A stretch of DNA of 64,000 nucleotides. Origin: a virus. The DNA lies in the IMG/VR virus record IMGVR_UViG_3300032236_001065, positions 17,524 to 81,523 of that record. One strand, written 5' to 3'. The stretch's first letter is position 1, and each line of letters starts with the position of its first letter. The notes below the pieces were generated by a model. That model did not search any database and was not told the DNA's origin. It saw only the letters and a list, made by a program, of their open reading frames with translations. Positions 813 through 54,457 of the stretch are shown here, piece after piece. Position numbers and translations under genes: made by a program.

Positions 813-2207
813 ATGGAACTACAAAAAACTTATTGGAATAACAGTGGCTCTTCTCTAGCCCTCTCATTCCCAATCGCCAAGGTTGATAGAGAAAAAAGAA
901 CCGTATCGGGATTTGCTTCCCTTGATAATGTTGACAAGCATGGAGACATTGTAACTGCTGAAGCAAGCAAAGCAGCTTTTGATAATTTCAGAGGAAACAT
1001 CCGTGAGATGCACGGACCTTCTGCAGTTGGCAAGATGCTTAACTTTAAGGAAGACTCTTTCTTTGATAAAGAGACTGGCAAGAAATATAGCGGAATTTAT
1101 GTAACAGCATATGTCTCCAAGGGTGCACAAGATGCATGGGAGAAGTGCTTAGATGGTACATATACAGGTTTCTCAATTGGTGGAAACATTGTAGATGCAA
1201 AAATGGAAAAGTCTGATGATGGATCAGAATCAAGGAGAGTTATTCACAAATATGAACTACACGAACTTAGTCTTGTGGATTCTCCAGCAAACCCACTTGC
1301 AAATATTTTTTCAATTCAAAAGATGGCAGAAGGCATTATAACAGAGAACGTATTCTGGTGCAGCACTGATGAAGTAGCATCAACCGCAACAGCAACAACA
1401 AAGAGTTGTGTTGTTTGCGATGGAGAGATGACAAACATTGGATGGGTTGAGCAAGCAGATGTTGAGAAGTTTGAAGCAATTGAAAAGGTAATTGATTCTT
1501 ATTTCAAGAAAGATGATGCTCCAACATCAGCACATGAAGCAACGGAGACAGCAGCTCCAGGTTTGGCGGGAAATGTAATTGATAGCACAACAGCTATTAA
1601 TCTCTATCCTGATCAAAACACAAAACAAAAAGTCACGTTTAACGACGGACTTAAGAAGAGTGAAGAAAATTCACTCAACGAAGGAGGTAACAAAATGGCA
1701 GAAGACACAGATGTAACAATTGAGAAGTCAATTGATGCAGAGACTCCAGCCGAAGAAGTTTCATCTGTAGATGAGACATCAGAAGTTACAGCAACAATTG
1801 AAAAGGCTGTAGAAATCTCTGAAGTTGAAGATACACTTGATTTTACAAAGATGGTCACTGACCTCAAGACCTTCTTTGGTGAGTCTATTGAAAAGAATTA
1901 TGCCCTACAATCAGCTACTATTGCAGATCTCCAGAAGGTTATTGATGTAACCACTGCTGAGCTTGCAAAGGTGAACAATTCATTTGAGGAAATGAAGAAG
2001 TCACACACAGAGCTTGTAGAAAAGCATGAAGCCCTACAAAAGTCAGTTACGGATATGTATGGAAAGATTGACTATGTTGATCACCAACTTAAGGGCTTTG
2101 AGTCCGCAACTGCAGTTAAGAAGTCCGTTGGGGTTTCCGAACAACCAATGGCTACAATCCAAAAAAGTATATGGCAAGGACACTTCCTCGGTGTTAATAA
2201 CCTATAA
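813..2207 (+). CDS. Prohead (capsid maturation) protease fused to acidic/coiled-coil scaffold
   Basis: HK97-type protease motifs VSGFASLDNVDKHGDIV, REMH, GFSIGG, ELSLVDSPANP; directly upstream of the major capsid gene. Confidence 0.92.
   Translation: MELQKTYWNNSGSSLALSFPIAKVDREKRTVSGFASLDNVDKHGDIVTAEASKAAFDNFRGNIREMHGPSAVGKMLNFKEDSFFDKETGKKYSGIYVTAYVSKGAQDAWEKCLDGTYTGFSIGGNIVDAKMEKSDDGSESRRVIHKYELHELSLVDSPANPLANIFSIQKMAEGIITENVFWCSTDEVASTATATTKSCVVCDGEMTNIGWVEQADVEKFEAIEKVIDSYFKKDDAPTSAHEATETAAPGLAGNVIDSTTAINLYPDQNTKQKVTFNDGLKKSEENSLNEGGNKMAEDTDVTIEKSIDAETPAEEVSSVDETSEVTATIEKAVEISEVEDTLDFTKMVTDLKTFFGESIEKNYALQSATIADLQKVIDVTTAELAKVNNSFEEMKKSHTELVEKHEALQKSVTDMYGKIDYVDHQLKGFESATAVKKSVGVSEQPMATIQKSIWQGHFLGVNNL
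1695..2207 (+). CDS. Nested in-frame scaffold protein from internal start
   Basis: Strong SD AAGGAGGT at 1681-1688 before in-frame ATG 1695 (MAEDTDV...); acidic then coiled-coil product. Confidence 0.6.
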   Translation: MAEDTDVTIEKSIDAETPAEEVSSVDETSEVTATIEKAVEISEVEDTLDFTKMVTDLKTFFGESIEKNYALQSATIADLQKVIDVTTAELAKVNNSFEEMKKSHTELVEKHEALQKSVTDMYGKIDYVDHQLKGFESATAVKKSVGVSEQPMATIQKSIWQGHFLGVNNL

Positions 2208-2243: not shown

Positions 2244-3404
2244 ATGAGTAATGAACTTCTACAAAAAGTAATTGATACTACGAACCTCGGTTCTTCAGCA
2301 GTCAATGCATCAGGCGACGCATCTAACCTTTCAGGTAATGGTCTCCTATATCCAGATCAGGCTAACCGCTTCCTGGATTACATGTGGGACGCTACGATTC
2401 TTGCTAAGGCAGCTCGTACAATCCGCATGCGTTCAAATACAACTGAAATTGATCGTGTTGCAGTTGGACAACGTATTATGACCGTTGCACAGGAAGAGAA
2501 TCCACGTAACTATGTTGCGTCTAACGATTCCTGGACTAACGCTAATTCTACTTCGTTCTCAAATGCAGCAGCACAATTCAACAAGGTATCCCTTACAACA
2601 CGTAAGCTACGTCTTGACTGGGAACTTTCAGCAGAATCTCTAGAAGATAACGTTGAGGGTCCAGATCTAGAAGATCACATTGCACGTTTGATGGCTACCC
2701 AGGCAGGTAACGATATTGAGGATGTTCTCATCAATGGTCTCGGAACTGGCTCAGGTTTGCTTTCAGCGTTCCAAGGTTTCCGTGCTCTCGCACTTAACAA
2801 CGCACACGTTGTTGATGCAAACGGTAACGGTCTAGACAAGACAATTTTCAACGCAGCAATCAAGGCATTGCCTCGTAAGTACAAGCAACGTCGTAACCAA
2901 CTTCGCTTCTTCACAGGATCTAACTTGGTACAAGACTACTTGTTCAACCTAACCGCAGAAACTAGCTCTGGCTTTACCCCATTTGATATCGCTTCAGGTA
3001 TCATTCGTGGTGATGTTGCAGCTAACGATGGTGGTCCAGGTACTGTAACTCCATTTGCTTTCGGTATCCCAGTTATCAACGTTCCGTTGATGGATGAGAC
3101 CCGTTCAGGCGACTACTCAGGTGCAGCTGGCCTTCATGGCGAGATTCACTTGACATTCCCTCAAAACTTCATTATTGGTATTAAGCGTGATGTAACAGTC
3201 TATCGCTTGTTCCAACCAAAGAAGGACACAATTGAGTACACACTCTTCATTCGTGTCGGTTGCGTAATGGAAAACTACGATGCACATGTTATCGTTAAGA
3301 ACGTCAAGGTTGCAGGTTCTGTTGGTGGAGCTCTCGGTTCCTTTACTAACGGTTCTGGTATTACTGGTGGCTCAAACGTCGCTGGCTTTACAACTTCATT
3401 CTAA
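2244..3404 (+). CDS. Major capsid protein (HK97 fold)
   Basis: GLLYPDQANRFLDY, KLRLDWELSAESLEDNVEG, GNDIEDVLING motifs; position after protease; strongly biased codon usage. Confidence 0.95.
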   Translation: MSNELLQKVIDTTNLGSSAVNASGDASNLSGNGLLYPDQANRFLDYMWDATILAKAARTIRMRSNTTEIDRVAVGQRIMTVAQEENPRNYVASNDSWTNANSTSFSNAAAQFNKVSLTTRKLRLDWELSAESLEDNVEGPDLEDHIARLMATQAGNDIEDVLINGLGTGSGLLSAFQGFRALALNNAHVVDANGNGLDKTIFNAAIKALPRKYKQRRNQLRFFTGSNLVQDYLFNLTAETSSGFTPFDIASGIIRGDVAANDGGPGTVTPFAFGIPVINVPLMDETRSGDYSGAAGLHGEIHLTFPQNFIIGIKRDVTVYRLFQPKKDTIEYTLFIRVGCVMENYDAHVIVKNVKVAGSVGGALGSFTNGSGITGGSNVAGFTTSF

Positions 3405-18364: not shown

Positions 18365-18402
18365 TTTATAGCTAAAATGCTATAATTTAAGTTAGGAGAA
18401 AT

Positions 18403-19530
18403 ATGGCGGGTTCAGTACAGAAAAGAACTACAGGTAAACCAGTCACTGGTACAGTTGCCGCTGCCATAAAGAAAAAGCCTGAAATTTGGATTGGTCCTAA
18501 TGACCCAAGAAATGATCCAGACTATATAAGAAACTATCCTGGGACTATTCATCAGCTTACAGCAGCTCAGTTCGCCGTATGGCTCAAAACACAATATTCT
18601 GAGGCGGGAGTGGCAGGAGTTGTTTCTTCAGCAGACCTATATGCAGGAGATATACCAGACTCCAGTCAAGTTAATGGACAACTTGACAACACCCTTTTAC
18701 CTCCATCAAATATAAAGTGGGATGGAACTTTTACAACAGTAAATACAGATATTGGAATTTTGCAGGATATAGAGATTACATTTGATCCAGCTCCAGAAGA
18801 TCCATTTGATGGAAGTTTTGTATATCATGTTTATTATGAAGCAGAGGGTTCTGTTGCAACACCTCCAACAGCTGCCACAGCTCCAGCCGCAAGTGCATCG
18901 GTAATTCAAACAGTTGCCAATAAAGCTATTGTTACGTCAACAACAACTCCTGTAAACGGAGTAGTTACCGCTGCTACTGGAAATGGAACTACAATTACTT
19001 ATACATGTGCAAATAATTTCTCAGCTGGTCAATCAGTAACAGTCACAGGCCTTGGAGTAAAATCTGGAGTATCATTAAATATTTCAGGATTAACTATTTT
19101 GACTGCAACAAGTACATATTTTACAGTAAGCAGCAACAAGGTCGGTGTGTCTTCAGGAAAGGGGTCTGCAACATCTACAGTAAAGAAGATTACAACTCCA
19201 GTTAAAACATCCAGCACACTTCAATTTAAATTTCCTGCAAAGACAAACGCATCTTCATATACCATTACAGTTACTGGATCAAATTTGCCAAACAGCTCTG
19301 GACAAACACAGATGACATATACAGGCATACCAGCTACAGGTGGATCAAAGGCTTACACATCTGGAACAGTACATGGTAGCTACGCTTTGGTAAAATCAGG
19401 CAGCAATATAACATTTACATTAACTCAAACAAACGGCAGATCGTACAGTGGTTCATATTCTGCTAAAATACAAGTACACTATGCAAAATCATCTTCCGTG
19501 GAGGTAATCAGTGAATCAGTCACAATTTAA
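18403..19530 (+). CDS. Minor tail protein, Thr/Ser-rich beta domains
   Basis: Tail module; TITYTCANNFSAGQSVTVTG beta-barrel motif. Confidence 0.65.
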   Translation: MAGSVQKRTTGKPVTGTVAAAIKKKPEIWIGPNDPRNDPDYIRNYPGTIHQLTAAQFAVWLKTQYSEAGVAGVVSSADLYAGDIPDSSQVNGQLDNTLLPPSNIKWDGTFTTVNTDIGILQDIEITFDPAPEDPFDGSFVYHVYYEAEGSVATPPTAATAPAASASVIQTVANKAIVTSTTTPVNGVVTAATGNGTTITYTCANNFSAGQSVTVTGLGVKSGVSLNISGLTILTATSTYFTVSSNKVGVSSGKGSATSTVKKITTPVKTSSTLQFKFPAKTNASSYTITVTGSNLPNSSGQTQMTYTGIPATGGSKAYTSGTVHGSYALVKSGSNITFTLTQTNGRSYSGSYSAKIQVHYAKSSSVEVISESVTI

Positions 19531-38888: not shown

Positions 38889-38893
38889 TAAGT

Positions 38894-44010: not shown

Positions 44011-44014
44011 CTAA

Positions 44015-44086: not shown

Positions 44087-44087
44087 C

Positions 44088-44207: not shown

Positions 44208-44235
44208 ATCTAAATGATGTTATAATTAAACTATC

Positions 44236-45040: not shown

Positions 45041-45041
45041 T

Positions 45042-48000
45042 ATGGCTATAAGACTAAACTTAGGATCTTTATCAAACAAGATTACTTTGCCTGGTCTTTT
45101 TCGCAATTTTTCAATATTAAGTGGTGGAACAACAACTTCTGATTCAATTTATTATTATACAACTTTTAACAGCACTGGAACTTTTAGTATTTCTAATGCA
45201 CCATTAAAAGCAGATATTCTTGTTGTCGCTGGTGGCGGTGGCGGAGGATATCAACAGTCAGGCGGTGGTGGAGCTGGAGGATATCAATCTTTATCTTATA
45301 AGCTGCCTGTAGGAACATATACTGTAACTATCGGCGGCGGTGGTTATGGTGGATATGAAAATGTAAAAGGTGGTCAAGGAGCAAGCTCTTCTTTTGGTAG
45401 TTTAATTACTTCAGTTGGCGGCGGTGGCGGAGGCTCTTGGGGCCGTGGTGCAACAGGTGGAGTAACAAATGTTGGTGGAGATGGAGGTTCTGGTGGTGGT
45501 AATGGAATCGGAACTGGAAACCCAACTGGTGGACACGGAATTGCTGGGCAAGGACATGATGGCGGAACAAGTGCTTTCAATGGCGGTGGCGGCGGAGCAG
45601 GACAAATTGGGCAACAAGGAGATGCAGTAAATGGATCTTATGGCGGTGCTGGCGGAAATGGTTTAACTTGGTTTAATGGTCAAACATATGCAGGCGGCGG
45701 CGGCGGAGGAGCATTCCAACCAGCCAATACTGTAGGAGGTGCTGGCGGTGCTGGCGGAGGCGGAGCTGGAAAATCTGGAAATATAAACGGAGATCCTGGC
45801 TCAACAAATACTGGCGGCGGCGGCGGTGCTGGAGGGCAATATTCAAGTTCTTTCCCATTTGGAAGTGGCGGAACGGGCGGTTCTGGAATTGTTATTCTTC
45901 GTTATCCTAAATCTATAGTAGCTTCAAATGATTCATCCCTTACATATATTACAATTAATGGAACAAGATATTCAATATCAGACCTAGCTGGAATTAGCAA
46001 CACAATTAATTTACCATATGGAACAACATCTGCAACAGTATCAGCAACCCAGTCAAACAAGTATGCAAAAATTAATATATCTAGTACTTCAGGTTTTTCA
46101 ACAGGAGATAATACATGTACCATAACAGTAACAGCTCAAGATCAAACAACAACCGCTTATACATTAAATCTTCATGTTATTGCAGCATCAACAGATACTA
46201 GAATAGGTACAGTTACAATAAATGGAACAACATATTCTGCAGATGATTTATCTGCAATTTCAGGCATTATTTCATTGCCATATGGAACAACTTCAGTAAC
46301 AGTATCTGCAACTGCCCTAGATCAATTTGCAAGAATTGGTACTATAACTGGTAGTACAGATTTGTCTGTAGGAGATAATACACTTCATATAGCTGTAATA
46401 TCACAATCTGGTTTAATAGGATTTTATAATATTAATCTTGCAGTTGCAGCACCCGCAACAGATTCATCTTTATCATCAGTAGTAATAGCTGGAACAACAT
46501 ATTCTTTGTCCGATCTAGCTGCAATAAATAATACTGTTCAACTGGCTAATAGTCCAACTTCAGTAACAGTATCTGCAACCCCAACAAATCAATATGCTAC
46601 AGTAACATCTATTACTGGCAATACAAATCTTTCTCAAGGAACACAAACTTTGACTATTGTAGTTACAGCACAAGATTCAAGCACAACTACTTATACATAT
46701 ACTCTTTATATTCCTTCAACTGTATTAGTTTCTGGAGGAACAAAATATTCTGATTCAACACATTATTATCGTGTATTTACCTCTTCTGACACACTTACTG
46801 TTTCTAATGGTCCACTTAATATTGAAGTAATGACCGTTGGTGCTGGTGGAGGCGGTGCTGGTGGAGGTGGCAATAACTACGGTGGTGGCGGTGCTGGTGG
46901 AATGTCAATTGCATCATTAAATGTACAGCCAAACTCATATTCTGTAACTGTAGGTGCTGGTGGTGGTGGTGTTGGAGTAGCTTGGTATGCTTTTAGTGAT
47001 CGCAACGGTGGGGATGGTTCTATTTCAACTTTTAATTTATCATCTACTGTGTTAACACAATCAGATTACGGAAAAGGTGGACATTATGTTTATGGAGGCA
47101 ATGCTGGAGCTGATGTTAACGGAGTAGTCCATACGGCTGGAAATGGAATGAATGTACAGGGCGGAGGCGGCGGTACTGGAGGAGCTGGTCTTGGAGCAAA
47201 TACTGGAGATATAACTGGCGGCCCATTTTATTTTAGTGCTTTCTATGGCTCAGTTGCTGGAGGAGATGGTACAAATCAACCATCAGATTGGATTTCTGGA
47301 GCTAATATTGGTTCAAACGGATATATTGGCGGCGGCGGTGCTGGTGTAGGATATAATTTTGGAACAGCAGCTGGTGGTGCTGGTGGTGGTGGAAATAGCG
47401 GACGCTATGGAAGCGGAGGTTCAAGTGGTGCAGCAAACACTGGTTCAGGCGGAGGTGCAGAAAATACTTCATACTATTATTCAACATCAGGAAGTGGCGG
47501 TTCTGGAGTAGTAGTAGTTCGTTATAATAAACTTGATGTAGCTCCTATGCCTACAATAAATGGAGGAACTCTTTCTTCAGATTCAACATATTATTACAGA
47601 ACATTTACTGATAGTGATACCTTTACTACAACAGGAACATTGAGTGCAGATATGTTGTTAATTGGTGCTGGTGGAGGTGCTGGTGGTTACGGTGGTGGCG
47701 GTGGAGCTGGTGCAGTAATTAATTTCTCATCAGTAACTTTAAATCCTGGAACACATTATGCATTTGTAGGTGCTGGAGGCGCTGGTGGATCAGCTTGGTC
47801 AGACCCTGCGAGTGGAAATCCAACAGTAATGGGAAATCTATTTGCACCTGGCGGAGGCTACGGTGCTGGCTATGCCCCATTTGAAGGATATTATCCAACT
47901 TATGCTGTTTTTGGTGGAGCTTCTGGTGGAGGAGCAAACTGGGCTACTGGTTCTGCTGGAGTTGCAATTTCTGACAATGGACACATTGGCTTTAATGGTG

Positions 48001-48428
48001 GATATGGATATCAAGATTTTGGTGGCGGTGCTCCTAGAACTGGCGGCGGCGGCGGCGGTGCTGGCGGAAATGCAATTCCTGGCGGTACTGGAGGTGCTGG
48101 TGCTGGTGGTCCAGGAACTTCAGATTACTCTTCATGGTTGTCTGCAATATCTTCAAGTATGTCTTCGGTTTCTGGATGGAACGATGCAACATCAAGTGGA
48201 TATATTGCAGGTGGCGGTGGCGGTGCAGCTGGTTACGCTTTAGGCGGTGGCGGTGGCGGTGCTGGAGGAGTTGGCGGTGGTGGAGCAGGATCTGGTTCAC
48301 AACAAACTGCACAACCTGGAACAGTAAATACTGGTTCTGGTGCTGGAAGTAATGGAACTGATGTAAATGGACTAAATGGTGGTTCAGGATTAATAATTTT
48401 AAGATATACTAAATCGCAGGTGGAGTGA
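45042..48428 (+). CDS. Glycine-rich virion appendage protein with three cadherin-like beta-sandwich repeats
   Basis: Three Gly-rich domains (LVVAGGGGGG...GGSGIVILRY) and three ~88-aa repeats (LPYGTTS.TVSAT...GDNT..ITVTAQD). Confidence 0.8.
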   Translation: MAIRLNLGSLSNKITLPGLFRNFSILSGGTTTSDSIYYYTTFNSTGTFSISNAPLKADILVVAGGGGGGYQQSGGGGAGGYQSLSYKLPVGTYTVTIGGGGYGGYENVKGGQGASSSFGSLITSVGGGGGGSWGRGATGGVTNVGGDGGSGGGNGIGTGNPTGGHGIAGQGHDGGTSAFNGGGGGAGQIGQQGDAVNGSYGGAGGNGLTWFNGQTYAGGGGGGAFQPANTVGGAGGAGGGGAGKSGNINGDPGSTNTGGGGGAGGQYSSSFPFGSGGTGGSGIVILRYPKSIVASNDSSLTYITINGTRYSISDLAGISNTINLPYGTTSATVSATQSNKYAKINISSTSGFSTGDNTCTITVTAQDQTTTAYTLNLHVIAASTDTRIGTVTINGTTYSADDLSAISGIISLPYGTTSVTVSATALDQFARIGTITGSTDLSVGDNTLHIAVISQSGLIGFYNINLAVAAPATDSSLSSVVIAGTTYSLSDLAAINNTVQLANSPTSVTVSATPTNQYATVTSITGNTNLSQGTQTLTIVVTAQDSSTTTYTYTLYIPSTVLVSGGTKYSDSTHYYRVFTSSDTLTVSNGPLNIEVMTVGAGGGGAGGGGNNYGGGGAGGMSIASLNVQPNSYSVTVGAGGGGVGVAWYAFSDRNGGDGSISTFNLSSTVLTQSDYGKGGHYVYGGNAGADVNGVVHTAGNGMNVQGGGGGTGGAGLGANTGDITGGPFYFSAFYGSVAGGDGTNQPSDWISGANIGSNGYIGGGGAGVGYNFGTAAGGAGGGGNSGRYGSGGSSGAANTGSGGGAENTSYYYSTSGSGGSGVVVVRYNKLDVAPMPTINGGTLSSDSTYYYRTFTDSDTFTTTGTLSADMLLIGAGGGAGGYGGGGGAGAVINFSSVTLNPGTHYAFVGAGGAGGSAWSDPASGNPTVMGNLFAPGGGYGAGYAPFEGYYPTYAVFGGASGGGANWATGSAGVAISDNGHIGFNGGYGYQDFGGGAPRTGGGGGGAGGNAIPGGTGGAGAGGPGTSDYSSWLSAISSSMSSVSGWNDATSSGYIAGGGGGAAGYALGGGGGGAGGVGGGGAGSGSQQTAQPGTVNTGSGAGSNGTDVNGLNGGSGLIILRYTKSQVE

Positions 48429-48430
48429 TA

Positions 48431-49459
48431 ATGCCATATAAAATTGTACAACACGGAAATAAGTTTTCAGTAGTAGCTGAAAATACTGGTCATGTAGCTG
48501 GAACACATGAATCAAAGAAACAAGCACAAGCACAAATGGCTGCGTTATATGCAAATGAACCAGAAGCAACCAAAAAGTGCATGACTTGTGGATGTGATGA
48601 TTTAGGAAATGATCACCATTATATTTCAGATACAGAAAAATGTGCATCATGCATTAATAAAGGTCAAGGACCATGTTGGGATGGATATGCATATGCAGGA
48701 ACTAAAGAAGATGAGCATGGAAAGACTGTGCCTAATTGCATTCCCGTCAAAAAAGGTGATGGCGGATATCAACCAACTGCAGGTATGAAGTCTGCAGCAG
48801 CTAAAGCAATTAAATGGAAAGAAGAAGGCAAGGCAAACGGTGCAGGAACAAATGTTGGTTGGACTCGTGCACATCAAATTGTAAGCGGTGAATCGTTATC
48901 TCTTGATACAGTAAAGCGTATGTATTCGTTCTTTTCTCGTCACGAAGTTGATAAAAAGGGCAAGGAATGGGACAAGCCATCACATGGTAAAGTTATGTGG
49001 TACGCATGGGGCGGAGATGCAGGATACTCTTGGTCTCGTGCAATTGTTGAAAGAGAAAGCAATATGAAGAAAGAATCAGCGGGAGCAGAACGGCTCTCTG
49101 GTGGACCAGGATTTAAAATTGAATTTAATGTTCCAGATTGCCAAGGCGGTTACGCTGTTATGAAGGCGGGATCTGGACAAGTAATTGGTTGCTATACAAC
49201 TAAAGAGCATGCACAAGCAGCTATGGACGCTATAGCAGTAAATGAACCAGATTTAACTAAATCTGATCAAACTAAGCAAAATGAACAAGATGGTATTGGT
49301 TCATTGAATTTTTGGAATGGTTCTTTTGCACCAGTTCTTGGATTGCAGGGCGGGGACAATGGATGGAAATCCACATACAATTCTCCTCCACAAAATGATG
49401 GTAAGCCAAATGTAGGTTACGGTAATTCTTCTAGCCCTAAAGGTAGAAGTAATCAATAA
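48431..49459 (+). CDS. Modular protein, putative internal head / capsid cargo polyprotein
   Basis: Short modules (MPYKI...AQMAALYANE-type twice; CWDGY..GTK...VPNC; TVKRMYSFFSRH...AWGGDAG) separated by x-x-K linkers; FWNGSFAP motif. Confidence 0.7.
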   Translation: MPYKIVQHGNKFSVVAENTGHVAGTHESKKQAQAQMAALYANEPEATKKCMTCGCDDLGNDHHYISDTEKCASCINKGQGPCWDGYAYAGTKEDEHGKTVPNCIPVKKGDGGYQPTAGMKSAAAKAIKWKEEGKANGAGTNVGWTRAHQIVSGESLSLDTVKRMYSFFSRHEVDKKGKEWDKPSHGKVMWYAWGGDAGYSWSRAIVERESNMKKESAGAERLSGGPGFKIEFNVPDCQGGYAVMKAGSGQVIGCYTTKEHAQAAMDAIAVNEPDLTKSDQTKQNEQDGIGSLNFWNGSFAPVLGLQGGDNGWKSTYNSPPQNDGKPNVGYGNSSSPKGRSNQ

Positions 49460-49479
49460 AATCTGATATAATATATATA

Positions 49480-49535
49480 CAGGATGCCGTAAGGGTCCTG
49501 AATTTAACTAACTTGCTGAAAAGGAGCTAAGTATG
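49480..49535 (+). promoter_or_regulatory. Structured 5' UTR of hsp20 with ROSE-like SD-sequestering hairpin
   Basis: CAGGATGCC-GTAA-GGGTCCTG hairpin then CTTGCT-GAAA-AGGAG. Confidence 0.7.
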
Positions 49536-49970
49536 ACAAACCTAACATATAAAACAAATCCATTTGCACAAATTGAAACTATTTTTAATGACCCGTTTTT
49601 TCTAGGGTTTAATGATCAATTTGTAAGATGGGAAACAAATAAGAAGACAACATCTTCATTTCCCCCATATAATGTAAAGAAAGTTGACGAAGACAACTAT
49701 GTTGTTGAGTTGGCAGTTGCGGGATATGACCGTGAAGATATTGATGTAACAGTAGATAAAGACACATTGATTATCAAGAGTGAACGTGAAAATGATGATA
49801 AAGCTGATTACCTACACAAGGGTATTGCTGGACGTAATTTCACACAGACATTCACCCTTGGTGAGTATATGATTGTTAAGTCTGCTTCACTTGAAAATGG
49901 ATTGCTTTCCGTCAAAATTGAACGGGAAATTCCAGACGAGGCTAAGCCTAGACAAATCAAGATCAAGTAA
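49533..49970 (+). CDS. Small heat-shock protein Hsp20 (IbpA-like)
   Basis: FPPYNV, ELAVAG, YLHKGIAGRNF, ENGLL, PRQIKIK. Confidence 0.95.
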   Translation: MTNLTYKTNPFAQIETIFNDPFFLGFNDQFVRWETNKKTTSSFPPYNVKKVDEDNYVVELAVAGYDREDIDVTVDKDTLIIKSERENDDKADYLHKGIAGRNFTQTFTLGEYMIVKSASLENGLLSVKIEREIPDEAKPRQIKIK

Positions 49971-49984
49971 GGTATAATTAAAGG

Positions 49985-50010
49985 ACCCCGCTCATACTGG
50001 GCGGGGTTTC
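49985..50010 (+). terminator. Hairpin after hsp20
   Basis: ACCCCGCTCA-TAC-TGGGCGGGGT-TTC. Confidence 0.6.
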
Positions 50011-50025
50011 TAACAAAGGATAAAT

Positions 50026-50157
50026 ATGGGAAGCAAGCATAACCAAGAAAAGATTAAGAAAGCTTTAGAAATTCGCATTAAAAATATGGAACCAGGCACA
50101 AAGAAGCCAGGCTCAATGAATAAGAAAAAGACAGGATACGCTAAAGTATCAAAGTAA
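50026..50157 (+). CDS. 43-aa basic peptide (not in ORF track)
   Basis: SD AAAGGA; MGSKHNQEKIKKALEIRIKNMEPGTKKPGSMNKKKTGYAKVSK. Confidence 0.55.
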   Translation: MGSKHNQEKIKKALEIRIKNMEPGTKKPGSMNKKKTGYAKVSK

Positions 50158-50172
50158 TGTATAATTAGATAT

Positions 50173-50460
50173 ATGAACAAAATTATAAATCATATATCTT
50201 TTTATGTAGACAAATACCCAGCCAGAATGTCTGGATATATGTCAGCGATAATTCTTAATGTATCTCATATGTGGGTAAATTTTCCAATTGGTTTGTTTAT
50301 TCCAGTTGCCATGTTGCTTATTATGATGGGCGAGGGATCACAGAGAAAAGAAGACGAAAAGACTTTGAAAGCTTTGTATACAGACAATGATAAGGAAAAG
50401 CCAGATTCTGATATACTATTAGATATGGTGTCAGAGTTACACAAGAAAGAGAGCAAGTAA
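50173..50460 (+). CDS. Two-TM membrane protein
   Basis: Two hydrophobic segments; TATAAT just upstream. Confidence 0.6.
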   Translation: MNKIINHISFYVDKYPARMSGYMSAIILNVSHMWVNFPIGLFIPVAMLLIMMGEGSQRKEDEKTLKALYTDNDKEKPDSDILLDMVSELHKKESK

Positions 50461-50897
50461 TGGAAGAATTAAATCAATTATTGATCAAGCTACAATCTAT
50501 GGTGGTCAAGATGTATGGACAATCACACGGCTATCACTGGAATATTGAAGGTCGCACATTCAAGCAAGATCACGCATTTTTGCTAGAAATTTATGAGGAT
50601 GTATTTGACTCTATTGACACATATTCAGAAAACCTCCGCAGATTAGGATATAAAGCACCATTTGGAGTAAAGTCATGGGATGCTAACAGCGAATTAGAGA
50701 TTAATGATTCCCTAGACCTAGACTCAAAAACAATGTTTCAAGAATTATCTAAAACTAATTTAATTGTCTTGGCAATGATTCGCAGGACATTTGACAAAGC
50801 TGCAGAATTAGATGAGCAAGGACTTTGTAACTTCTTGGCAGAAAGAGAAGATAAACATAAGTTCTGGCAATGGCAGTTGACAGCAACCCTTAAATAA
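50460..50897 (+). CDS. dps: Dps-family ferritin-like protein
   Basis: HGYHWNIEG..F...H...EIYE....IDTYSENLR.LG; HKFWQWQL. Confidence 0.92.
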   Translation: MEELNQLLIKLQSMVVKMYGQSHGYHWNIEGRTFKQDHAFLLEIYEDVFDSIDTYSENLRRLGYKAPFGVKSWDANSELEINDSLDLDSKTMFQELSKTNLIVLAMIRRTFDKAAELDEQGLCNFLAEREDKHKFWQWQLTATLK

Positions 50898-50922
50898 TAT
50901 AGAATACAGATATTGATGTACA

Positions 50923-50944
50923 AGGGTCACGAAAGTGACCTTTT
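50923..50944 (+). terminator. Intrinsic terminator after dps
   Basis: AGGGTCAC-GAAA-GTGACCTT-TT. Confidence 0.7.
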
Positions 50945-50950
50945 GTATTT

Positions 50951-51023
50951 GCCCCTGTAGTTCAGTGGATAGAACAATGGACTTCTAAGCCATGTGTCGC
51001 AGGTTCAATTCCTGCTAGGGGCA
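50951..51023 (+). tRNA. tRNA-Arg(TCT)
   Basis: GCCCCTG/TAGGGGC acceptor; loop CTTCTAA; GGTTCAATTCC. Confidence 0.92.
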
Positions 51024-51058
51024 CAACTGATGTATAATAGTACCGAGGAAGTGGTAAA

Positions 51059-51385
51059 TTGGAATACGATCCTTCAAATGAAGAACACCAAGAGTTAATG
51101 GACTATCTGGTAGCAGAAGGTGCAGCAAGTCTTGATGGGATAGCAGATGATGGAGAACCAGTTTATAAGTTTGATATGGAAATCTTGGAAGAGGTTATGC
51201 CAGAACTCCATCAAGCAATGCTAGATGATATGGACCAAGTTTTACTTGATTTATATCAAAAAGGTTTGATTGAAGTCTCTTATGACGAAGATCTAAACGC
51301 TCAAATTGCAGTATCTGAAGAAGGTAGAAATGCTCTTATTCAAGCTGGATTTGATATGGATTCTTTTGACGAAGAAACTTACTAA
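51059..51385 (+). CDS. Very acidic hypothetical protein
   Basis: TTG start; high D/E content. Confidence 0.65.
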   Translation: MEYDPSNEEHQELMDYLVAEGAASLDGIADDGEPVYKFDMEILEEVMPELHQAMLDDMDQVLLDLYQKGLIEVSYDEDLNAQIAVSEEGRNALIQAGFDMDSFDEETY

Positions 51386-51387
51386 TA

Positions 51388-51401
51388 AAATAAGGTGGTG
51401 A
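51388..51401 (+). promoter_or_regulatory. Shared leader/extended SD AAATAAGGTGGTGA (copy 3)
   Basis: Identical to capsid and major tail leaders. Confidence 0.7.
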
Positions 51402-51408
51402 TTTAAAT

Positions 51409-51645
51409 ATGGATAACAACCAACAAGGTAAAGAAGGTGGCGTACAACAACCAGCTTCAGCAACTCCAGTAACGGAGGCAGCAGGCCCACAGGCAGGTCT
51501 TGCATCAGATGCAAAGACTGATCTAGGTGTAAACAACCCAGGTTCAATGAATGTCGGAAGCCCTTTCACGGGGCGTGATGTTTCAATGACCACTCCACAA
51601 TACGCTGGAGGAAATATCACGACAACAGAGGCGGGGTCAAGATAA
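51409..51645 (+). CDS. Small disordered protein, probably abundant late product
   Basis: Capsid-type leader; Gly/Pro/Thr/Gln-rich. Confidence 0.65.
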   Translation: MDNNQQGKEGGVQQPASATPVTEAAGPQAGLASDAKTDLGVNNPGSMNVGSPFTGRDVSMTTPQYAGGNITTTEAGSR

Positions 51646-52452
51646 ATGGATTTTGTACAAAAAAGAGAATTTTCAGATGAAAAGCGTAAGCAAATGGCAT
51701 CAGCAGGTCACGCTATGCCAGATGGTTCTTTTCCTATTGAGAATGTAACTGATTTGCACAATGCAATCCAATCAGTAGGTCGCTCAAGTAATTATGCTAA
51801 AGCTAAGGCTCACATTATTCAAAGAGCAAAAGACTTAGAAGCAACAAACATCCTTCCAGATGATTGGAAGGTTAAAAAGTTTATTGATGATGTTAAGGAT
51901 GCATTTGAAAAGGCAATCGGTACATCTTCTTCAGTAGACCAAGAGCGTGACGAAAGAAGCGTTGAAAACTACGTTAGACAAAGTGCTAACACAGACACAA
52001 AATCTCAGATAGGAGGTACAATAATGTCAAACACAACAGAGCCAGATCCACAGGGATCTATTGCAGTACAAAAGGATTTGCCTAACGCAGATCGTGCAGC
52101 ATCACCAGCAATTGTTGATCAAGAGACTCGCCCAGAAGGTGATGTTTCTCCATCAGCAGCAGCACACAATGTTCCAGATGTTTCAACAGGTGGAGCAGGT
52201 GTCTATAAGGCTGGAATGACTTGCCCAGATTGCGGTCAGGCAGTATCACACAAGTGTGCAGCTGATTCAGCTGCAGACGATGAGTCAAAGGTTGAGAAGT
52301 CAGCAACAGATGATGAGGTTACAGAAACAGTTGAAAAAGCTGCAGATGAGCCAGAGTCTAAGGAAGAAGCTGCTAAGGAAACAGCCGAAGACGAGAAGGC
52401 GGAAATGAAGAAGTCCCTTTGGGGCGGAGCATTTGCACCATTAAAGCCATAA
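51646..52452 (+). CDS. Putative capsid cargo / scaffold-like protein
   Basis: N-terminal AMPDGSFPI.N..DL.NAI domain (DUF6582-like, seen on phage head proteases), VEKS/VEKA repeats, C-terminal KKSLWGGAF; internal SD AGGAGGT plus ATG 52024. Confidence 0.75.
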   Translation: MDFVQKREFSDEKRKQMASAGHAMPDGSFPIENVTDLHNAIQSVGRSSNYAKAKAHIIQRAKDLEATNILPDDWKVKKFIDDVKDAFEKAIGTSSSVDQERDERSVENYVRQSANTDTKSQIGGTIMSNTTEPDPQGSIAVQKDLPNADRAASPAIVDQETRPEGDVSPSAAAHNVPDVSTGGAGVYKAGMTCPDCGQAVSHKCAADSAADDESKVEKSATDDEVTETVEKAADEPESKEEAAKETAEDEKAEMKKSLWGGAFAPLKP

Positions 52453-52478
52453 GTTAATTATATATACGTATATATGTG

Positions 52479-52509
52479 CATAAGGACGGGAAACCGTCCT
52501 TGTGTATTT
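52479..52509 (+). terminator. Hairpin terminator
   Basis: CATAAGGACGG-GAAA-CCGTCCTTGTG-TATTT. Confidence 0.7.
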
Positions 52510-52518
52510 AGAAAGGAA

Positions 52519-52890
52519 ATGATGAGAGTATTAGTTTTTGGAGACAAAAATTGGCGGGATTATAATGATGTTATCCGCCAACTTACAGTATTAATTGATG
52601 ACCGTAAACACTTCTATCCAGATGATAAAGAATATGTATTTGTACATAAAGGTCTTCAGGGTGCAGAAAATATGGTAACAGAATATATTGGAAAAACCGA
52701 GAGATTCCTTAGACAAAAAGGCTATAAGATCAAAGAAGAATTAGTTAGAGATCGGACATCATATTCTGATGTCACTATGATTGAATCTATGCCAGATTTT
52801 GCTCTCATATTCGGGGATTGTCCAAGAAATAGACAATGCATTAAGTTGCTTGAAGCATATCAAATCCCGTTCAGAAATATCAAAGAATAA
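52519..52890 (+). CDS. SLOG-like (DUF2493/YspA-type) protein
   Basis: RVLVFGDKNWRDY...VHKG..GAE; SD GAAAGGA. Confidence 0.6.
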   Translation: MMRVLVFGDKNWRDYNDVIRQLTVLIDDRKHFYPDDKEYVFVHKGLQGAENMVTEYIGKTERFLRQKGYKIKEELVRDRTSYSDVTMIESMPDFALIFGDCPRNRQCIKLLEAYQIPFRNIKE

Positions 52891-52892
52891 GC

Positions 52893-52922
52893 TTGACACA
52901 AGCTCTATAAAACTGATACAAT
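52893..52922 (+). promoter_or_regulatory. Promoter TTGACA-N18-TACAAT
   Basis: Upstream of groES-like gene. Confidence 0.75.
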
Positions 52923-52954
52923 AGTATTAATGTACCTACTAACAAAGGAAATGA

Positions 52955-53260
52955 ATGACAAATATTGACCCACTAGGTGGTCTAATTCTAGTCAAAGAAA
53001 TAGAACAACAAGATAAACGCACAAAATCTGGTCTGGTTATTGCTGCAACCGCACAAGAATCAGAACTTAAGCGTGGAGAAATTGTAAAGCTTGGCCCAGG
53101 TGAGCGGGATCAAGAAGGAAAGATACATACAATCCCACTTGAAATCGGACAAATTATAATTTATAATGAAGGAAATGCAACAGAAGTTACAGATGCATTA
53201 AGCGAAAAATATCAATTTATCAATTGGCGACACCTACTAGGAGTAGAAAATAATGGCTAA
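52955..53260 (+). CDS. groES: GroES-like co-chaperonin
   Basis: PLGGLILV...TKSGLVI...GEIVKLGPG. Confidence 0.9.
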   Translation: MTNIDPLGGLILVKEIEQQDKRTKSGLVIAATAQESELKRGEIVKLGPGERDQEGKIHTIPLEIGQIIIYNEGNATEVTDALSEKYQFINWRHLLGVENNG

Positions 53261-53483
53261 GTTAACATTAGATTACGATTCAGCACACAAGTTTGTTGAA
53301 AAGAATAAGGATCAAGGCTTCTTTTGGGATGGCTTTACAATTGTAAAGTGGTCCCCTAGCAACAATGGTTTTATGCAACCAAATGGTTTATATAGAAACG
53401 GCAAGTGGGGATATTCAAATCGTTATGATTTGAAGTCAAACGGCACTTGGGATATAAGCGAGAAGTATGCCAAGTTCGTTTAA
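53253..53483 (+). CDS. Hypothetical protein
   Basis: FFWDGFTIVKW...GLYRNGKWG; coupled ORF. Confidence 0.65.
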   Translation: MAKLTLDYDSAHKFVEKNKDQGFFWDGFTIVKWSPSNNGFMQPNGLYRNGKWGYSNRYDLKSNGTWDISEKYAKFV

Positions 53484-53805
53484 TTTCTTAGGCATAGACA
53501 AGGAAGACCTTCAATGGTATCACCTTGCTGTATGCAATGGTATGACAACTAGACCAGACTTTGATTGGTTCTATGACTTGTATGAAGCTGACAAAGAAGC
53601 TGCAAAACAAGTTGATGAAATGTGTTTGTCATGTCCAGTTATTAAGATTTGTTACGAACAGGGCGTTAAGAATAAAGAAAAAGGCGTGTGGGGCGGGGTT
53701 TACATGGATCTTGGCAGACAAGATAAACAACATAACTCACACAAAACTCCTGAAACATGGAAGAAGTTAAAGAAGATTCATGGCACAAATAAAATACACG
53801 GTTGA
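53467..53805 (+). CDS. whiB: WhiB-family transcription factor
   Basis: W...AVC...CLSCPV...C....GVWGG. Confidence 0.9.
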   Translation: MPSSFNFLGIDKEDLQWYHLAVCNGMTTRPDFDWFYDLYEADKEAAKQVDEMCLSCPVIKICYEQGVKNKEKGVWGGVYMDLGRQDKQHNSHKTPETWKKLKKIHGTNKIHG

Positions 53806-54034
53806 AATGGCTAAAAAAATACGGGAAATAAAATGTCCCGTAAAAAATTTAGTAATGGATGTTAGGGCAAGACCTAATTATCTGGCTTTAACTGTGTATG
53901 AAGAAAATGTCATGGAGTATAACGAGTCTCAAAGAATGCAATTGATGGAATACCTATTATTGGTAAGACAATTAATTCAATCTTATGGGACACCATGTGA
54001 GCTGGAGGGAATCCAAGGCAATGTCAGATCATGA
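53780..54034 (+). CDS. Hypothetical protein
   Basis: Operon-coupled ORF. Confidence 0.65.
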   Translation: MAQIKYTVEMAKKIREIKCPVKNLVMDVRARPNYLALTVYEENVMEYNESQRMQLMEYLLLVRQLIQSYGTPCELEGIQGNVRS

Positions 54035-54230
54035 GGAAACAATAGAGTTTGTATATATCCCAGATGAGGGTATCTACGGAACTATTATCCAATACGGTGC
54101 TTGGTCATCATTAATTGAATATTATGATGGCGGAATTAAATACACCATTGAAATCCCCAACGATGAATATATTGTTGTAGATGAAATCGGTGTCGGATAT
54201 ATTGATGAAACGGAAGAAGATAACGAATGA
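54021..54230 (+). CDS. Acidic hypothetical protein
   Basis: Operon-coupled ORF. Confidence 0.6.
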   Translation: MSDHEETIEFVYIPDEGIYGTIIQYGAWSSLIEYYDGGIKYTIEIPNDEYIVVDEIGVGYIDETEEDNE

Positions 54231-54457
54231 ATTGTTACTCTTGTAATAAACAAAAGGCAGGCCTTGAGCCTACTAGATCATCTCTTATTCCAGGTATCAC
54301 ATTATTTTTGTGTGCTACTTGCATTGAAGAGAAAATGGAGCCACGTTGGGTTGTTATCTTGGCGGGGCGTCAAAACGGACCTGAATATGTAAGAGATTGT
54401 GTATTAAAGAGACGTTATTTTGGACATACAATTACAGCGGAGGAATTAATTGCTTAA
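54227..54457 (+). CDS. Zn-finger protein
   Basis: CYSC...CATC. Confidence 0.65.
   Translation: MNCYSCNKQKAGLEPTRSSLIPGITLFLCATCIEEKMEPRWVVILAGRQNGPEYVRDCVLKRRYFGHTITAEELIA

What the first reader, a model, noticed from the sequence alone, without database searches (positions are those of the whole stretch)
48431..52452. Putative capsid cargo-addressing system: distant ORFs carry the scaffold's C-terminal W-x-G-x-F tag and its protease-site repeats
Seen: the protease/scaffold (813..2207) ends QKSIWQGHFLG (2163-2186). ORF 51646 ends MKKSLWGGAFAP (52411-52440) and ORF 48431 has SLNFWNGSFAP near its end (49301-49333). All three are punctuated by hydrophobic-x-K motifs (scaffold: LQK, IQK, LKKS, IEKS, IEKA, MKKS, LQKS, VKKS, IQKS; 51646: VQK, FEKA, VQKD, VYKA, VEKS, VEKA, MKKS; 48431: INKG, VKKG, MKKE, LTKS), and the capsid protein begins MSNELLQK-V. 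Known: HK97-family proteases use short terminal peptides to enter proheads, T4 internal proteins use a capsid-targeting sequence and are cut by gp21, and encapsulins load cargo through C-terminal peptides. Inference: this phage appends a portable W-x-G-x-F address to unrelated, dispersed genes so that they are co-assembled into the prohead and cut after Lys into small modules, which may be kept in the head or delivered to the host.
Basis: partly seen in the sequence, partly recalled or inferred. Interest (0 to 1): 0.88.

Follow-up and report, generated by a model that had tools for sequence, protein, structure and literature searches.

The report
Shared capsid-address tag on phage proteins
An uncultured phage of about 100 kb, and many relatives, put the short peptide that ends their head-scaffold protein onto several unrelated small proteins, which most likely loads those proteins into the capsid; nobody has tested this at the bench.

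Summary
The protease/scaffold (813..2207), ORF 48431 and ORF 51646 share a core S-h-W-x-G-x-F-(A/L)-(P/G) (h = hydrophobic residue).

- **Conservation:** the core is present in 116 of 120 homologues of each ORF. It lies near the C-terminus in 108 of 150 diverse protease/scaffold representatives, including Streptomyces phages at 41% identity.
- **Portability:** modules around the tag are shuffled. Where ORF 48431 is split into two genes, each keeps its own tag. Further families carry it.
- **Co-occurrence:** all 13 contigs long enough to show both a tagged accessory protein and the scaffold have a tagged scaffold.
- **Fusions elsewhere:** the tagged proteins' domains occur fused to proteases, portals or capsid proteins in other phages.

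Best reading: a scaffold-mimicking procapsid address, usually just after a hydrophobic-x-Lys site.

It is a new variant of a known kind (T4 capsid-targeting sequence, HK97 protease tail, 80alpha SP/CpmB, encapsulin peptides). First readers of this scan noted the same tag in other genomes, without follow-up.

The parts
813..2207 (+). Prohead protease (S78) fused to a scaffold, 464 aa
   Evidence: Pfam Peptidase_S78_2 and Peptidase_S78, plus a weak GPO scaffold match below cut-off. phrog_9427 head maturation protease, full length, E 8.5e-111. h-x-K 24 against 10.5 expected.
1681..1697 (+). AAGGAGGT plus ATG (M295) inside the protease gene, in frame: likely nested start for a 170-aa scaffold-only product
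   Evidence: Read from the sequence. Expression not tested.
2163..2204 (+). Scaffold C-terminal tag KS-IWQGHF-LGVNNL (W454..F458 = 2172..2186)
   Evidence: W.G.F within 30 aa of the end in 108 of 150 family representatives; 133 of 150 with a looser pattern. 68 of 69 close relatives. BoomerJR ends SKWGGHFLSVSDISR.
2244..3404 (+). HK97-fold major capsid protein without delta domain; N-terminus MSNELLQK (2244..2267) conserved
   Evidence: Pfam Phage_capsid; phrog_1623. M1..T13 invariant in 36 sequences. MSNELLEK in distant clades. MSNDEMIEK in BoomerJR.
48431..49459 (+). Tagged accessory protein 1, 342 aa. String of modules: DUF2188-like (res 1-45), Cys-rich CWxGY..VPNC (res 50-107), FFSRHEVDK domain = phrog_2859 (res 113-210), DUF2188 (res 234-272), tag, tail
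   Evidence: Module order permuted among 44 homologues. Starts 3 nt after the stop of the Gly-rich fibre-like gene 45042..48428.
49301..49333 (+). Tag SLNFWNGSFAP in a variable linker
   Evidence: W295 and G297 invariant, F299 and P301 at least 90% conserved, in 44 sequences. W.G.F in 116 of 120 homologues.
49334..49456 (+). Conserved tail after the tag (STYNSPPQxDGxPxVGYGN...), function unknown
   Evidence: D323, G324, G329, Y330, N332 and S334 invariant. The tag sits 42-51 aa from the end in most homologues.
51646..52452 (+). Tagged accessory protein 2, 268 aa: N-terminal DUF6582-like domain (res 5-75), conserved core, CxxC..HxC (res 193-204), acidic linker with VEK-S / VEK-A sites, tag
   Evidence: No Pfam or PHROG hit. 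N-terminal domain matches ORFs annotated capsid maturation protease or portal in actinophages. ESM Atlas structural neighbours carry Peptidase_S78, DUF6582 or CLP_protease. K218 and K231 at least 90% conserved.
52010..52026 (+). TAGGAGGT plus ATG (M127), in frame inside ORF 51646: possible nested start
   Evidence: The GG residues before M127 are invariant in 60 homologues (G123, G124).
52405..52449 (+). MKK-S-LWGGAF-APLKP: h-x-K site followed by the C-terminal tag (W259..F263 = 52420..52434)
   Evidence: W259, G261 and F263 invariant in 60 sequences while the linker varies. 116 of 120 homologues keep W.G.F 4-8 aa from the end.

Best explanation
The peptide S-h-W-x-G-x-F-(A/L)-(P/G) is the part of the protease/scaffold that holds it to the inside of the assembling capsid shell. 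The same peptide has been copied onto unrelated accessory proteins, so they are co-assembled into the procapsid in competition with the scaffold.

**Shown:**
- The motif is shared, strongly conserved and modular.
- It sits where scaffold proteins carry their capsid-binding determinant.
- Tagged accessory proteins were found only alongside a tagged scaffold.

**Inferred:**
1. The tag binds the capsid protein or the scaffold core.
2. The S78 protease cuts at the hydrophobic-x-Lys sites. One such site usually lies 1-3 residues before the Trp. Others lie between modules. Cutting would free the modules from the shell-bound tag, much as the scaffold itself is released.
3. The small modules (DUF2188, FFSRHEVDK, DUF6582-like and Cys-rich) stay in the head and may enter the host with the DNA.
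For: **Conservation**
- 116 of 120 homologues of ORF 51646 and 116 of 120 of ORF 48431 keep W.G.F.
- 108 of 150 protease/scaffold representatives, each from a cluster at 50% identity, have it within 30 aa of the end; 133 of 150 with a looser pattern.
- W, G and F are invariant while the flanking linkers vary and carry indels.

**Portability**
- Module order is permuted.
- In L131 and L132 the ORF 48431 counterpart is two genes. One ends EKEIWNGAFSP..KNK. The next has its tag 43 aa from the end.
- The G002 homologue has two tags.
- Further tagged proteins: a 108-aa Cys protein (L132:9765-10088) and a 329-337-aa polyprotein joining DUF2188 and DUF6582-like modules (L159, L169).
- In a distant clade the tag is 2 aa from the end: KKSIWDGTFIK.

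**Counts in IMG/VR loci**
- 24 of 24 ORFs of the ORF 51646 family carry the tag.
- 39 of 56 FFSRHE-domain ORFs carry it exactly, and about 12 more carry near-variants.

**Co-occurrence**
- All 13 contigs long enough to show both have a tagged scaffold: own contig, G001, G002, G006-G010, G016-G020.

**Negative controls**
- Three cultured phages carry the FFSRHE domain fused into other head proteins. None shows a tag, exact or loose, on the FFSRHE-bearing protein. The exact-pattern scan of their genomes gave no tag-like hit in two; Vibrio phage 1.112.O has one unexamined C-terminal W-N-G-E-F in another ORF.

**Fusion evidence**
- The FFSRHE domain opens the protease-capsid polyproteins of Roseobacter phage CRP-821 and Synechococcus phage S-CBS1.
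- It also lies in ORFs annotated prohead protease, capsid maturation protease or portal.
- The ORF 51646 N-terminal domain lies in ORFs annotated capsid maturation protease or portal.
- Eight of the 10 longest protease/scaffold representatives carry inserted Hva1_TUDOR, DUF5824 or DUF6582 modules. One has a DUF2188-like stretch 51% identical to ORF 48431.

**Lys sites**
- Enrichment in the scaffold and ORF 51646.
- Conserved K at module boundaries.
- K within 8 residues before the Trp in 116 of 116 (ORF 51646 family) and 97 of 108 (scaffolds).

**Precedent**
- 80alpha scaffold and SaPI1 CpmB share a C-terminal motif that binds the capsid N-arm (PMC5644958, passages).
Against: - No binding, packaging or cleavage was observed or modelled.
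- Scaffold tags mostly read F-L-(G/S), whereas accessory tags mostly read F-(A/S)-P.
- In a third clade the scaffold keeps W-G-G-R-F-L. Most accessory tags there carry one extra residue (W-x-G-S-x-F), so the tags do not co-vary.
- In most of the ORF 48431 family the tag is internal, with a conserved tail of 42-51 aa behind it, and only 44 of 116 have a Lys within 8 residues before the Trp.
- h-x-K is not enriched in ORF 48431.
- 17 of 56 FFSRHE-domain ORFs lack the exact motif, and about 5 have no recognisable tag.
- BoomerJR has the tag on its scaffold only.
- The two genes lie 46-50 kb from the head module, next to Hsp20, Dps-like and WhiB-like genes.
Confidence: 0.58

Rival explanations
1. 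The tag binds the procapsid as proposed, but ORF 51646 (and perhaps ORF 48431) is an assembly factor rather than cargo. It could be a second scaffold, a core or a size-determining protein, as CpmB is for 80alpha capsids. It would be degraded and expelled like the scaffold.
For: ORF 51646 is acidic and largely disordered (ESM Atlas model, mean pLDDT 0.52). It is as rich in h-x-K-[SA] sites as the scaffold. It has a scaffold-like nested SD+ATG. It shares T-x-T-(I/V)-E-K-(A/S) strings with the scaffold. The CpmB precedent applies.
Against: Its N-terminal domain and the ORF 48431 modules are small globular domains that recur in many phage contexts, unlike coiled-coil scaffolds. BLAST between ORF 51646 and the scaffold is not significant (best E 0.29). 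Streptomyces relatives assemble without such genes.
Confidence: 0.17
2. The motif is a docking or recognition element for the S78 protease itself. It marks substrates for processing without holding them to the shell.
For: The motif usually follows a h-x-K site directly. All its carriers are rich in such sites or have them at module boundaries.
Against: The protease is fused to the same scaffold that carries the tag, so a self-docking tail 290 residues away has no obvious use. Scaffold C-termini are the usual capsid-binding ends (PMC12749128 section 15; PMC5644958). The capsid protein, also a presumed substrate, has no such motif.
Confidence: 0.1
3. The shared peptide binds some other partner (portal, DNA, a host factor), or is a convergent structural motif with no common function.
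For: Unrelated W.G.F motifs do exist in these genomes: WhiB-like GVWGG(V/I)F and the NlpC/P60 catalytic PWCGSF. Scaffold and accessory tags differ after the Phe, and in spacing in one clade.
Against: Those unrelated motifs sit inside folded domains, not in variable linkers or at C-termini. Convergence would not explain one tag per gene after gene splits, or 13 of 13 co-occurrence with a tagged scaffold.
Confidence: 0.08

Closest known systems
80alpha scaffolding protein and SaPI1 CpmB (shared C-terminal RIIK helix-and-hook motif)
   Same: Two otherwise different proteins share the scaffold's C-terminal peptide and bind the same site on the capsid protein N-arm (PMC5644958, passages read).
   Different: The motif differs (RIIK after an amphipathic helix, against W-x-G-x-F). 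CpmB comes from a satellite and redirects capsid size. Here the phage itself tags several small globular modules. The protease there is a host enzyme (recalled).
HK97 gp4 protease C-terminal tail (Duda, Oh and Hendrix 2013)
   Same: An S78-family protease is taken into the prohead by its C-terminal tail, and that tail can carry foreign proteins in. This is recalled: the paper is not held. Only its title was seen, in reference lists.
   Different: HK97's scaffold is the delta domain of the capsid protein. Here the scaffold is fused to the protease and the capsid protein has no delta domain. No natural extra cargo with the gp4 tail is known to me.
Phage T4 capsid targeting sequence on IPI-III and Alt; P1 DarB N-terminal signal
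   Same: A short portable peptide loads unrelated proteins into the prohead. In T4 the head protease then clips it off, and the proteins are injected (PMC9024508, passages).
   Different: Those signals are N-terminal. T4 uses the S77 protease gp21 cutting after Glu (recalled). Here the tag is C-terminal or in a linker, the protease is S78, and the candidate sites end in Lys.
Herpesvirus UL26/UL26.5 and lambda C/Nu3 nested protease-scaffold genes
   Same: Protease fused to scaffold, an in-frame internal start for a scaffold-only product, a C-terminal capsid-binding tail, and a cleavage site just before it (recalled knowledge). The matching gene layout here was read.
   Different: No further proteins are known to carry those tails.
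Encapsulin cargo-loading peptides
   Same: Short C-terminal peptides on unrelated cargo bind the inner face of an HK97-fold shell (recalled).
   Different: Encapsulins have no portal, scaffold, protease or DNA. The consensus differs.
Polyvalent proteins (Iyer et al. 2017, PMC5512222)
   Same: Strings of small conflict-related domains predicted to be packaged in capsids and processed (passages read).
   Different: In the term search of that paper, 'scaffold', 'DUF2188', 'HK97' and 'DUF2945' gave no hit in the main text. The proteins here are much smaller and lack MuF.

Membership tests
T4-type capsid targeting sequence system | Tag is an N-terminal leader of about 10 residues | tested here: not met
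   Tags are C-terminal or in linkers near the C-terminus.
T4-type capsid targeting sequence system | Head protease of family S77 (gp21) cutting after Glu | tested here: not met
   The protease matches Peptidase_S78 and S78_2. Candidate sites end in Lys.
HK97-type (S78) prohead protease with a C-terminal targeting tail | S78 protease domain | tested here: met
   PF04586 at 27.8 bits (cut-off 21) and PF14550 at 30.1 bits (cut-off 24).
HK97-type (S78) prohead protease with a C-terminal targeting tail | C-terminal tail sufficient for encapsidation | not testable with these tools
Nested protease-scaffold gene (lambda C/Nu3, herpes UL26/UL26.5 type) | Protease and scaffold in one frame, with an internal in-frame start for a scaffold-only product | tested here: inconclusive
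   The fusion is shown. AAGGAGGT lies 6 nt before ATG 1695. Translation was not tested.
Shared scaffold C-terminal motif (80alpha SP / CpmB type) | A second protein carries the scaffold's C-terminal capsid-binding motif | tested here: met
   The motif is shared at sequence level and conserved. Binding itself was not tested.
Shared scaffold C-terminal motif (80alpha SP / CpmB type) | RIIK helix-and-hook motif | tested here: not met
   The consensus here is K-S-h-W-x-G-x-F-L/A-G/P.
Encapsulin cargo-loading system | HK97-fold shell without portal, scaffold or packaged genome | tested here: not met
   This is a phage contig with a protease/scaffold, a capsid protein and tail-like genes. A 529-aa ORF just upstream is a presumed portal by position only.
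Polyvalent proteins | Two to 15 conflict-related domains in one polypeptide in a portal-terminase phage | tested here: inconclusive
   ORF 48431 has four small modules. Only DUF2188 is linked to conflict systems in print (10.1101/2022.04.27.489752, passages). No MuF or enzyme domain was found.

The most novel reading that the evidence does not exclude
The W-x-G-x-F peptide is a general capsid-address code that can be read from sequence. It would apply across the large family of phages with S78 protease/scaffold fusions (3780 hits at E <= 0.001). Any protein carrying it, terminally or between modules, would be loaded into the procapsid, freed by Lys-specific cuts, and injected with the DNA as a set of small anti-defence or takeover modules. 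The packaged proteome of uncultured phages could then be predicted from sequence, and the tag could be used to load foreign proteins into HK97-type capsids.
Probability: 0.3. Interest if true: 0.8.

Novelty: new variant of a known kind. Interest (0 to 1): 0.62.

Why it matters
Proteins packed into phage heads and injected with the DNA include anti-restriction factors and polymerases. They are hard to recognise from sequence outside T4-like phages.

A conserved C-terminal tag shared with the scaffold would give a simple marker for such proteins in a very common group of aquatic phages. It would link several domains of unknown function (DUF2188, DUF6582, the phrog_2859 domain, Hva1_TUDOR, DUF5824) to the capsid interior. 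It would also offer a short handle for loading foreign proteins into HK97-type capsids.

It would be a second natural case, after 80alpha SP and CpmB, of other proteins copying the scaffold's capsid-binding end, here by the phage itself.

Tried and rejected
- **Complex and structure prediction.** No binding or fold evidence exists.
- **Solved structures by sequence.** Profiles A1 and A3 found nothing in the PDB at E <= 1. A2 found only chance zinc-finger matches to protein kinase C C1 domains, E 0.03 and worse.
- **ESM Atlas.** It gave leads for ORF 51646. The second call, on part of ORF 48431, failed.
- **Wrong label, corrected.** I first called the central domain of ORF 48431 DUF5872. PF19197 in fact maps to a different module that follows the tag in P0180, P0146 and P0169. 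The central domain matches only phrog_2859. My script label 'DUF5872 protein' means FFSRHE-domain protein.
- **Co-variation of scaffold and accessory tags.** Not found. The first attempt at the third clade hit fragments lacking the head module: 0 of 5 records had a protease match.
- **Other tagged ORFs in cultured relatives.** BoomerJR (131 kb) has only the protease. A C-terminal-looking WQGVF lies out of frame inside gene 9.
- **False positives set aside.** WhiB-like GVWGG(V/I)F, 12 hits. NlpC/P60 PWCGSF, 44 hits. Seven others. With the looser pattern, a small zinc-ribbon family ending GIQFKGSGFYKTDNG (the name 'FmdB-type' is recalled).
- **Not followed up.** WNGEF lies 7 aa from the end of a 255-aa ORF of Vibrio phage 1.112.O.
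- **Promoter and terminator scan, 44000-53500.** At chance level: 32 against 26.7 +/- 4.7, and 9 against 6.4 +/- 2.6. It says nothing about timing of expression.
- **Literature.** Searches found no paper in the held library on this motif or on tagged accessory proteins in S78 protease/scaffold phages. The motif strings gave four unrelated papers. Subscription journals are mostly not held. Supplements were not opened.

Full report
**What is in the window.** The window is bases 17524-81523 of an 81.5-kb phage contig, 39% G+C, with nearly all genes on the + strand.
- Gene 813..2207 encodes a 464-aa fusion of an S78 prohead protease with a scaffold (Pfam PF14550 and PF04586; phrog_9427 over its full length).
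- An HK97-fold capsid protein without a delta domain follows at 2244..3404.
- The protease/scaffold ends IQKSIWQGHFLGVNNL.
- ORF 51646..52452 (268 aa, no Pfam or PHROG match) ends MKKSLWGGAFAPLKP.
- ORF 48431..49459 (342 aa) has SLNFWNGSFAP 43 residues before its end.

W.G.F occurs only four times in all six-frame segments of 50 aa or more in the window. Composition predicts 0.29 occurrences in the last 60 residues of the 110 ORFs; three are seen. The fourth hit (18391..19530) is mid-protein, and I saw no counterpart in related contigs.

**Conservation.**
- Of the 120 best homologues of ORF 51646, 116 keep W.G.F 4-8 residues from the end. Three of the four misses come from contigs under 900 bases, and one reads WGNAF.
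- In a 60-sequence alignment with mean column identity 47%, W259, G261 and F263 are invariant, and A262 and P265 are at least 90% conserved. The acidic linker before them varies in length and sequence.
- Of the 120 best homologues of ORF 48431, 116 keep W.G.F, nearly always followed by x-P. W295 and G297 are invariant in 44 sequences.
- An exhaustive HMMER search with the protease/scaffold gave 3780 hits at E <= 0.001.
- Of the 150 best cluster representatives, 108 have W.G.F within 30 residues of the end. With a looser pattern the count is 133. Several of the 17 misses are shorter than full length (235-372 aa, against about 400-470) and may be fragments.
- Streptomyces phage BoomerJR, 41% identical, ends SKWGGHFLSVSDISR.
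- Consensus: scaffold K-S-h-W-(G/N)-G-x-F-L-(G/S); ORF 51646 family M-K-K-S-h-W-G-G-A-F-A-P; ORF 48431 family S-(I/F)-W-(D/N)-G-x-F-(A/S)-P.

**The tag is portable.**
- ORF 48431 is a string of small modules: DUF2188-like, a Cys-rich CWxGY..VPNC piece, the FFSRHEVDK domain (phrog_2859) and a second DUF2188. Their order and number differ among homologues, while the tag and a conserved tail stay at the end.
- In loci L131 and L132 the counterpart is two adjacent genes. A 228-aa gene ends EKEIWNGAFSP..KNK. A 132-aa gene has its own tag 43 residues from the end.
- The homologue in G002 is fused and keeps both tags.
- L132 and L133 have a further 108-aa Cys-containing protein ending DISWGGSFAPIKKI.
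- A third clade has a 329-337-aa protein that joins DUF2188 with the DUF6582-like domain of ORF 51646. It ends GMTGW(S/G)G(T/S)(V/I)FDLNPF.
- In a clade whose protease is 43-52% identical, the FFSRHE-domain protein ends KKSIWDGTFIK, two residues from the stop.
- Across 79 IMG/VR loci, 24 of 24 ORFs of the ORF 51646 family carry the exact motif. So do 39 of 56 FFSRHE-domain ORFs with a visible C-terminus. Of the other 17, nine read W-x-G-S-x-F and three read F-x-G-x-F at the same place. About five have no tag.

**Co-occurrence and controls.**
- Every contig long enough to hold both a tagged accessory protein and the head module has a scaffold with the tag: the own contig, G001, G002, G006-G010 and G016-G020, 13 of 13.
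- Three further related contigs (51-77% complete) show the tagged scaffold only. By my estimate from the window's spacing (the accessory genes lie about 46-50 kb after the scaffold gene), the accessory region would fall beyond the end of at least G003.
- The complete genome of BoomerJR has the tag on the scaffold only. The scaffold use is therefore primary, and tagging of other proteins is specific to some lineages.
- In three cultured phages the FFSRHE domain is built into other head proteins: Vibrio phage 1.112.O gp26, Roseobacter phage CRP-821 gp39 and Synechococcus phage S-CBS1 gp04. None of these proteins has a tag.
- A pattern scan of those genomes gave no tag-like in-frame hit in CRP-821 or S-CBS1. 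Vibrio phage 1.112.O has one unexamined C-terminal WNGEF in another ORF.
- Unrelated W.G.F motifs in these genomes sit inside folded domains (WhiB-like GVWGG, NlpC/P60 PWCGSF).

**The tagged proteins' domains belong to head proteins elsewhere.**
- The FFSRHE domain opens the 975-aa and 836-aa protease-capsid polyproteins of CRP-821 and S-CBS1.
- It also lies under ORFs annotated prohead protease (Halogranum virus HGTV-1), capsid maturation protease (Actinomycetia phage DSL-LC01) or portal/head morphogenesis (HRTV-28).
- The N-terminal domain of ORF 51646 matches ORFs annotated capsid maturation protease in Gordonia and Microbacterium phages, and portal in GX15bay.
- Its ESM Atlas structural neighbours include clusters with Peptidase_S78, DUF6582 and CLP_protease. 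All have TM below 0.5, so these are leads only.
- Eight of the ten longest protease/scaffold representatives carry inserted Hva1_TUDOR (5), DUF5824 (2) or DUF6582 (1) modules after the protease domain. Two have none.
- P0264 has a stretch 51% identical to the second DUF2188 of ORF 48431.
- So such modules reach the procapsid covalently in many phages. Here they are free-standing and carry the scaffold's end instead.

**Lys sites.**
- Against 2000 shuffles, h-x-K is over-represented in the scaffold (24 against 10.5; none reach it). h-x-K-[SA] is over-represented in ORF 51646 (5 against 0.91; three reach it). Neither is over-represented in the capsid protein or ORF 48431.
- In ORF 51646, K218 and K231 (VEK-S, VEK-A) are at least 90% conserved inside a variable acidic stretch.
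- In ORF 48431, K108 and K214 are invariant and K49 is at least 90% conserved. All three lie at module boundaries.
- A Lys lies within 8 residues before the Trp in 116 of 116 tags of the ORF 51646 family, 97 of 108 scaffold tags and 44 of 116 tags of the ORF 48431 family.
- 134 of 150 scaffolds also keep an A-(V/I)-K-K-S site about 25 residues upstream.
- That HK97's S78 protease cuts its capsid protein between Lys103 and Ser104 is recalled, not checked here.
- The capsid N-terminus MSNELLQK-V is invariant in 36 relatives. It reads MSNELLEK in distant clades and MSNDEMIEK in BoomerJR. It may be a cut site or part of the N-arm that scaffolds usually contact. I cannot tell which.

**Gene design.** Both the protease/scaffold gene and ORF 51646 contain a strong Shine-Dalgarno sequence followed by an in-frame ATG: AAGGAGGT before M295 at 1695, and TAGGAGGT before M127 at 52024. 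This fits nested shorter products, as in lambda C/Nu3 (recalled). ORF 48431 starts 3 nt after the stop of a Gly-rich fibre-like gene. Its counterpart in L131 likewise abuts a collagen-like gene. This hints at late expression. The promoter and terminator scan was at chance level.

**Most likely mechanism.** The tag is the scaffold's capsid-binding end, copied onto accessory proteins so that they are built into the procapsid. The S78 protease then cuts at h-x-K sites. This frees the modules from the bound tag, as it frees the scaffold. Sharing, conservation, portability and co-occurrence are shown. Binding, cleavage and the fate of the modules are inferred.

Points against a single common binding geometry:
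- Scaffolds read F-L-G/S whereas accessory tags read F-A/S-P.
- A one-residue insertion occurs in the accessory tags of one clade, whose scaffolds stay canonical.
- The tag is internal in most of the ORF 48431 family.

**Comparison with known systems.**
- The nearest precedent is 80alpha SP and SaPI1 CpmB. They share a C-terminal helix-and-hook with an RIIK motif that binds the capsid N-arm (PMC5644958).
- Scaffold C-termini contacting the N-arm helix are described as a general theme (PMC12749128, section 15).
- T4 and P1 use N-terminal targeting signals (PMC9024508).
- HK97 gp4's C-terminal tail and encapsulin loading peptides are recalled analogues.
- The system here fails the defining features of the T4 system (tag position, protease family) and of the 80alpha motif. 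It works like them but is not a member.
- Searches of the held library found no description of this motif or of tagged accessory proteins in this phage group.
- First readers of this scan noted the same tag in three other genomes, and the Lys sites in a fourth, without follow-up. Follow-up agents described N-terminal scaffold-mimic tags in T4-like phages.

**Verdict.** It is a new variant of a known kind, of moderate to high interest.

Noticed in passing
window 1681-1697 and 52010-52026: Strong Shine-Dalgarno sequences (AAGGAGGT, TAGGAGGT) followed by in-frame ATG codons inside the protease/scaffold gene (M295) and ORF 51646 (M127). This suggests nested shorter products, as in lambda C/Nu3.
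   Followed up: partly
window 49334-49456: The 41-residue tail after the tag of ORF 48431 (STYNSPPQxDGxPxVGYGN...) has six invariant residues in 44 homologues. The tag sits 42-51 aa from the end in most homologues. This may be a second linear motif of unknown function.
   Followed up: partly
window 2244-2267: The capsid N-terminus MSNELLQK is invariant in 36 relatives and recognisable in 41%-identical Streptomyces phages (MSNDEMIEK). It is either a Lys cut site or the N-arm contact for the scaffold tail.
   Followed up: partly
window 53467-53805: A WhiB-like small protein with GVWGGVY. In relatives it reads GVWGG(V/I)F and turns up as a false positive for the tag pattern.
   Followed up: yes
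window about 38888-39070 (own contig segment starting at 56411): A small zinc-ribbon ORF (about 60 aa) ends GIQFKGSGFYKTDNG and is present in nearly all related loci. It is a false positive for the loosened tag pattern. I did not examine whether the resemblance means anything.
   Followed up: no
L132:9765-10088 and L159:2724-3713, L169:6111-7124: Further tagged proteins in relatives that the window lacks: a 108-aa Cys protein ending DISWGGSFAPIKKI, and a 329-337-aa polyprotein (DUF2188, Tudor-like stretch, DUF5872-like, DUF6582-like) ending GMTGWxGxxFDLNPF.
   Followed up: partly
L180 ORF from 9980 (371 aa): An FFSRHE-domain protein whose C-terminus is a DUF6582-like domain (..NAIRSWGRGG..IPENWK) with no tag. 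It joins the domains of the window's two tagged proteins in one chain.
   Followed up: no
L131 and L132, between the two tagged genes: Relatives carry a secreted subtilisin-like (S8) peptidase and an NlpC/P60 hydrolase between the Dps-like gene and the ORF 51646 counterpart. The ORF list of window 46000-55000 shows no counterparts there.
   Followed up: no
L108 record (Vibrio phage 1.112.O), about 41786: A 255-aa ORF ends ..MKADWNGEFTHKKDLV, a tag-like C-terminus in a phage with a different head module. It may be chance.
   Followed up: no
P0180, P0146, P0169: Pfam DUF5872 (PF19197) maps to a module that follows the tag in some homologues, not to the FFSRHEVDK domain. The latter has no Pfam match at E <= 0.1 in this copy.
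   Followed up: yes
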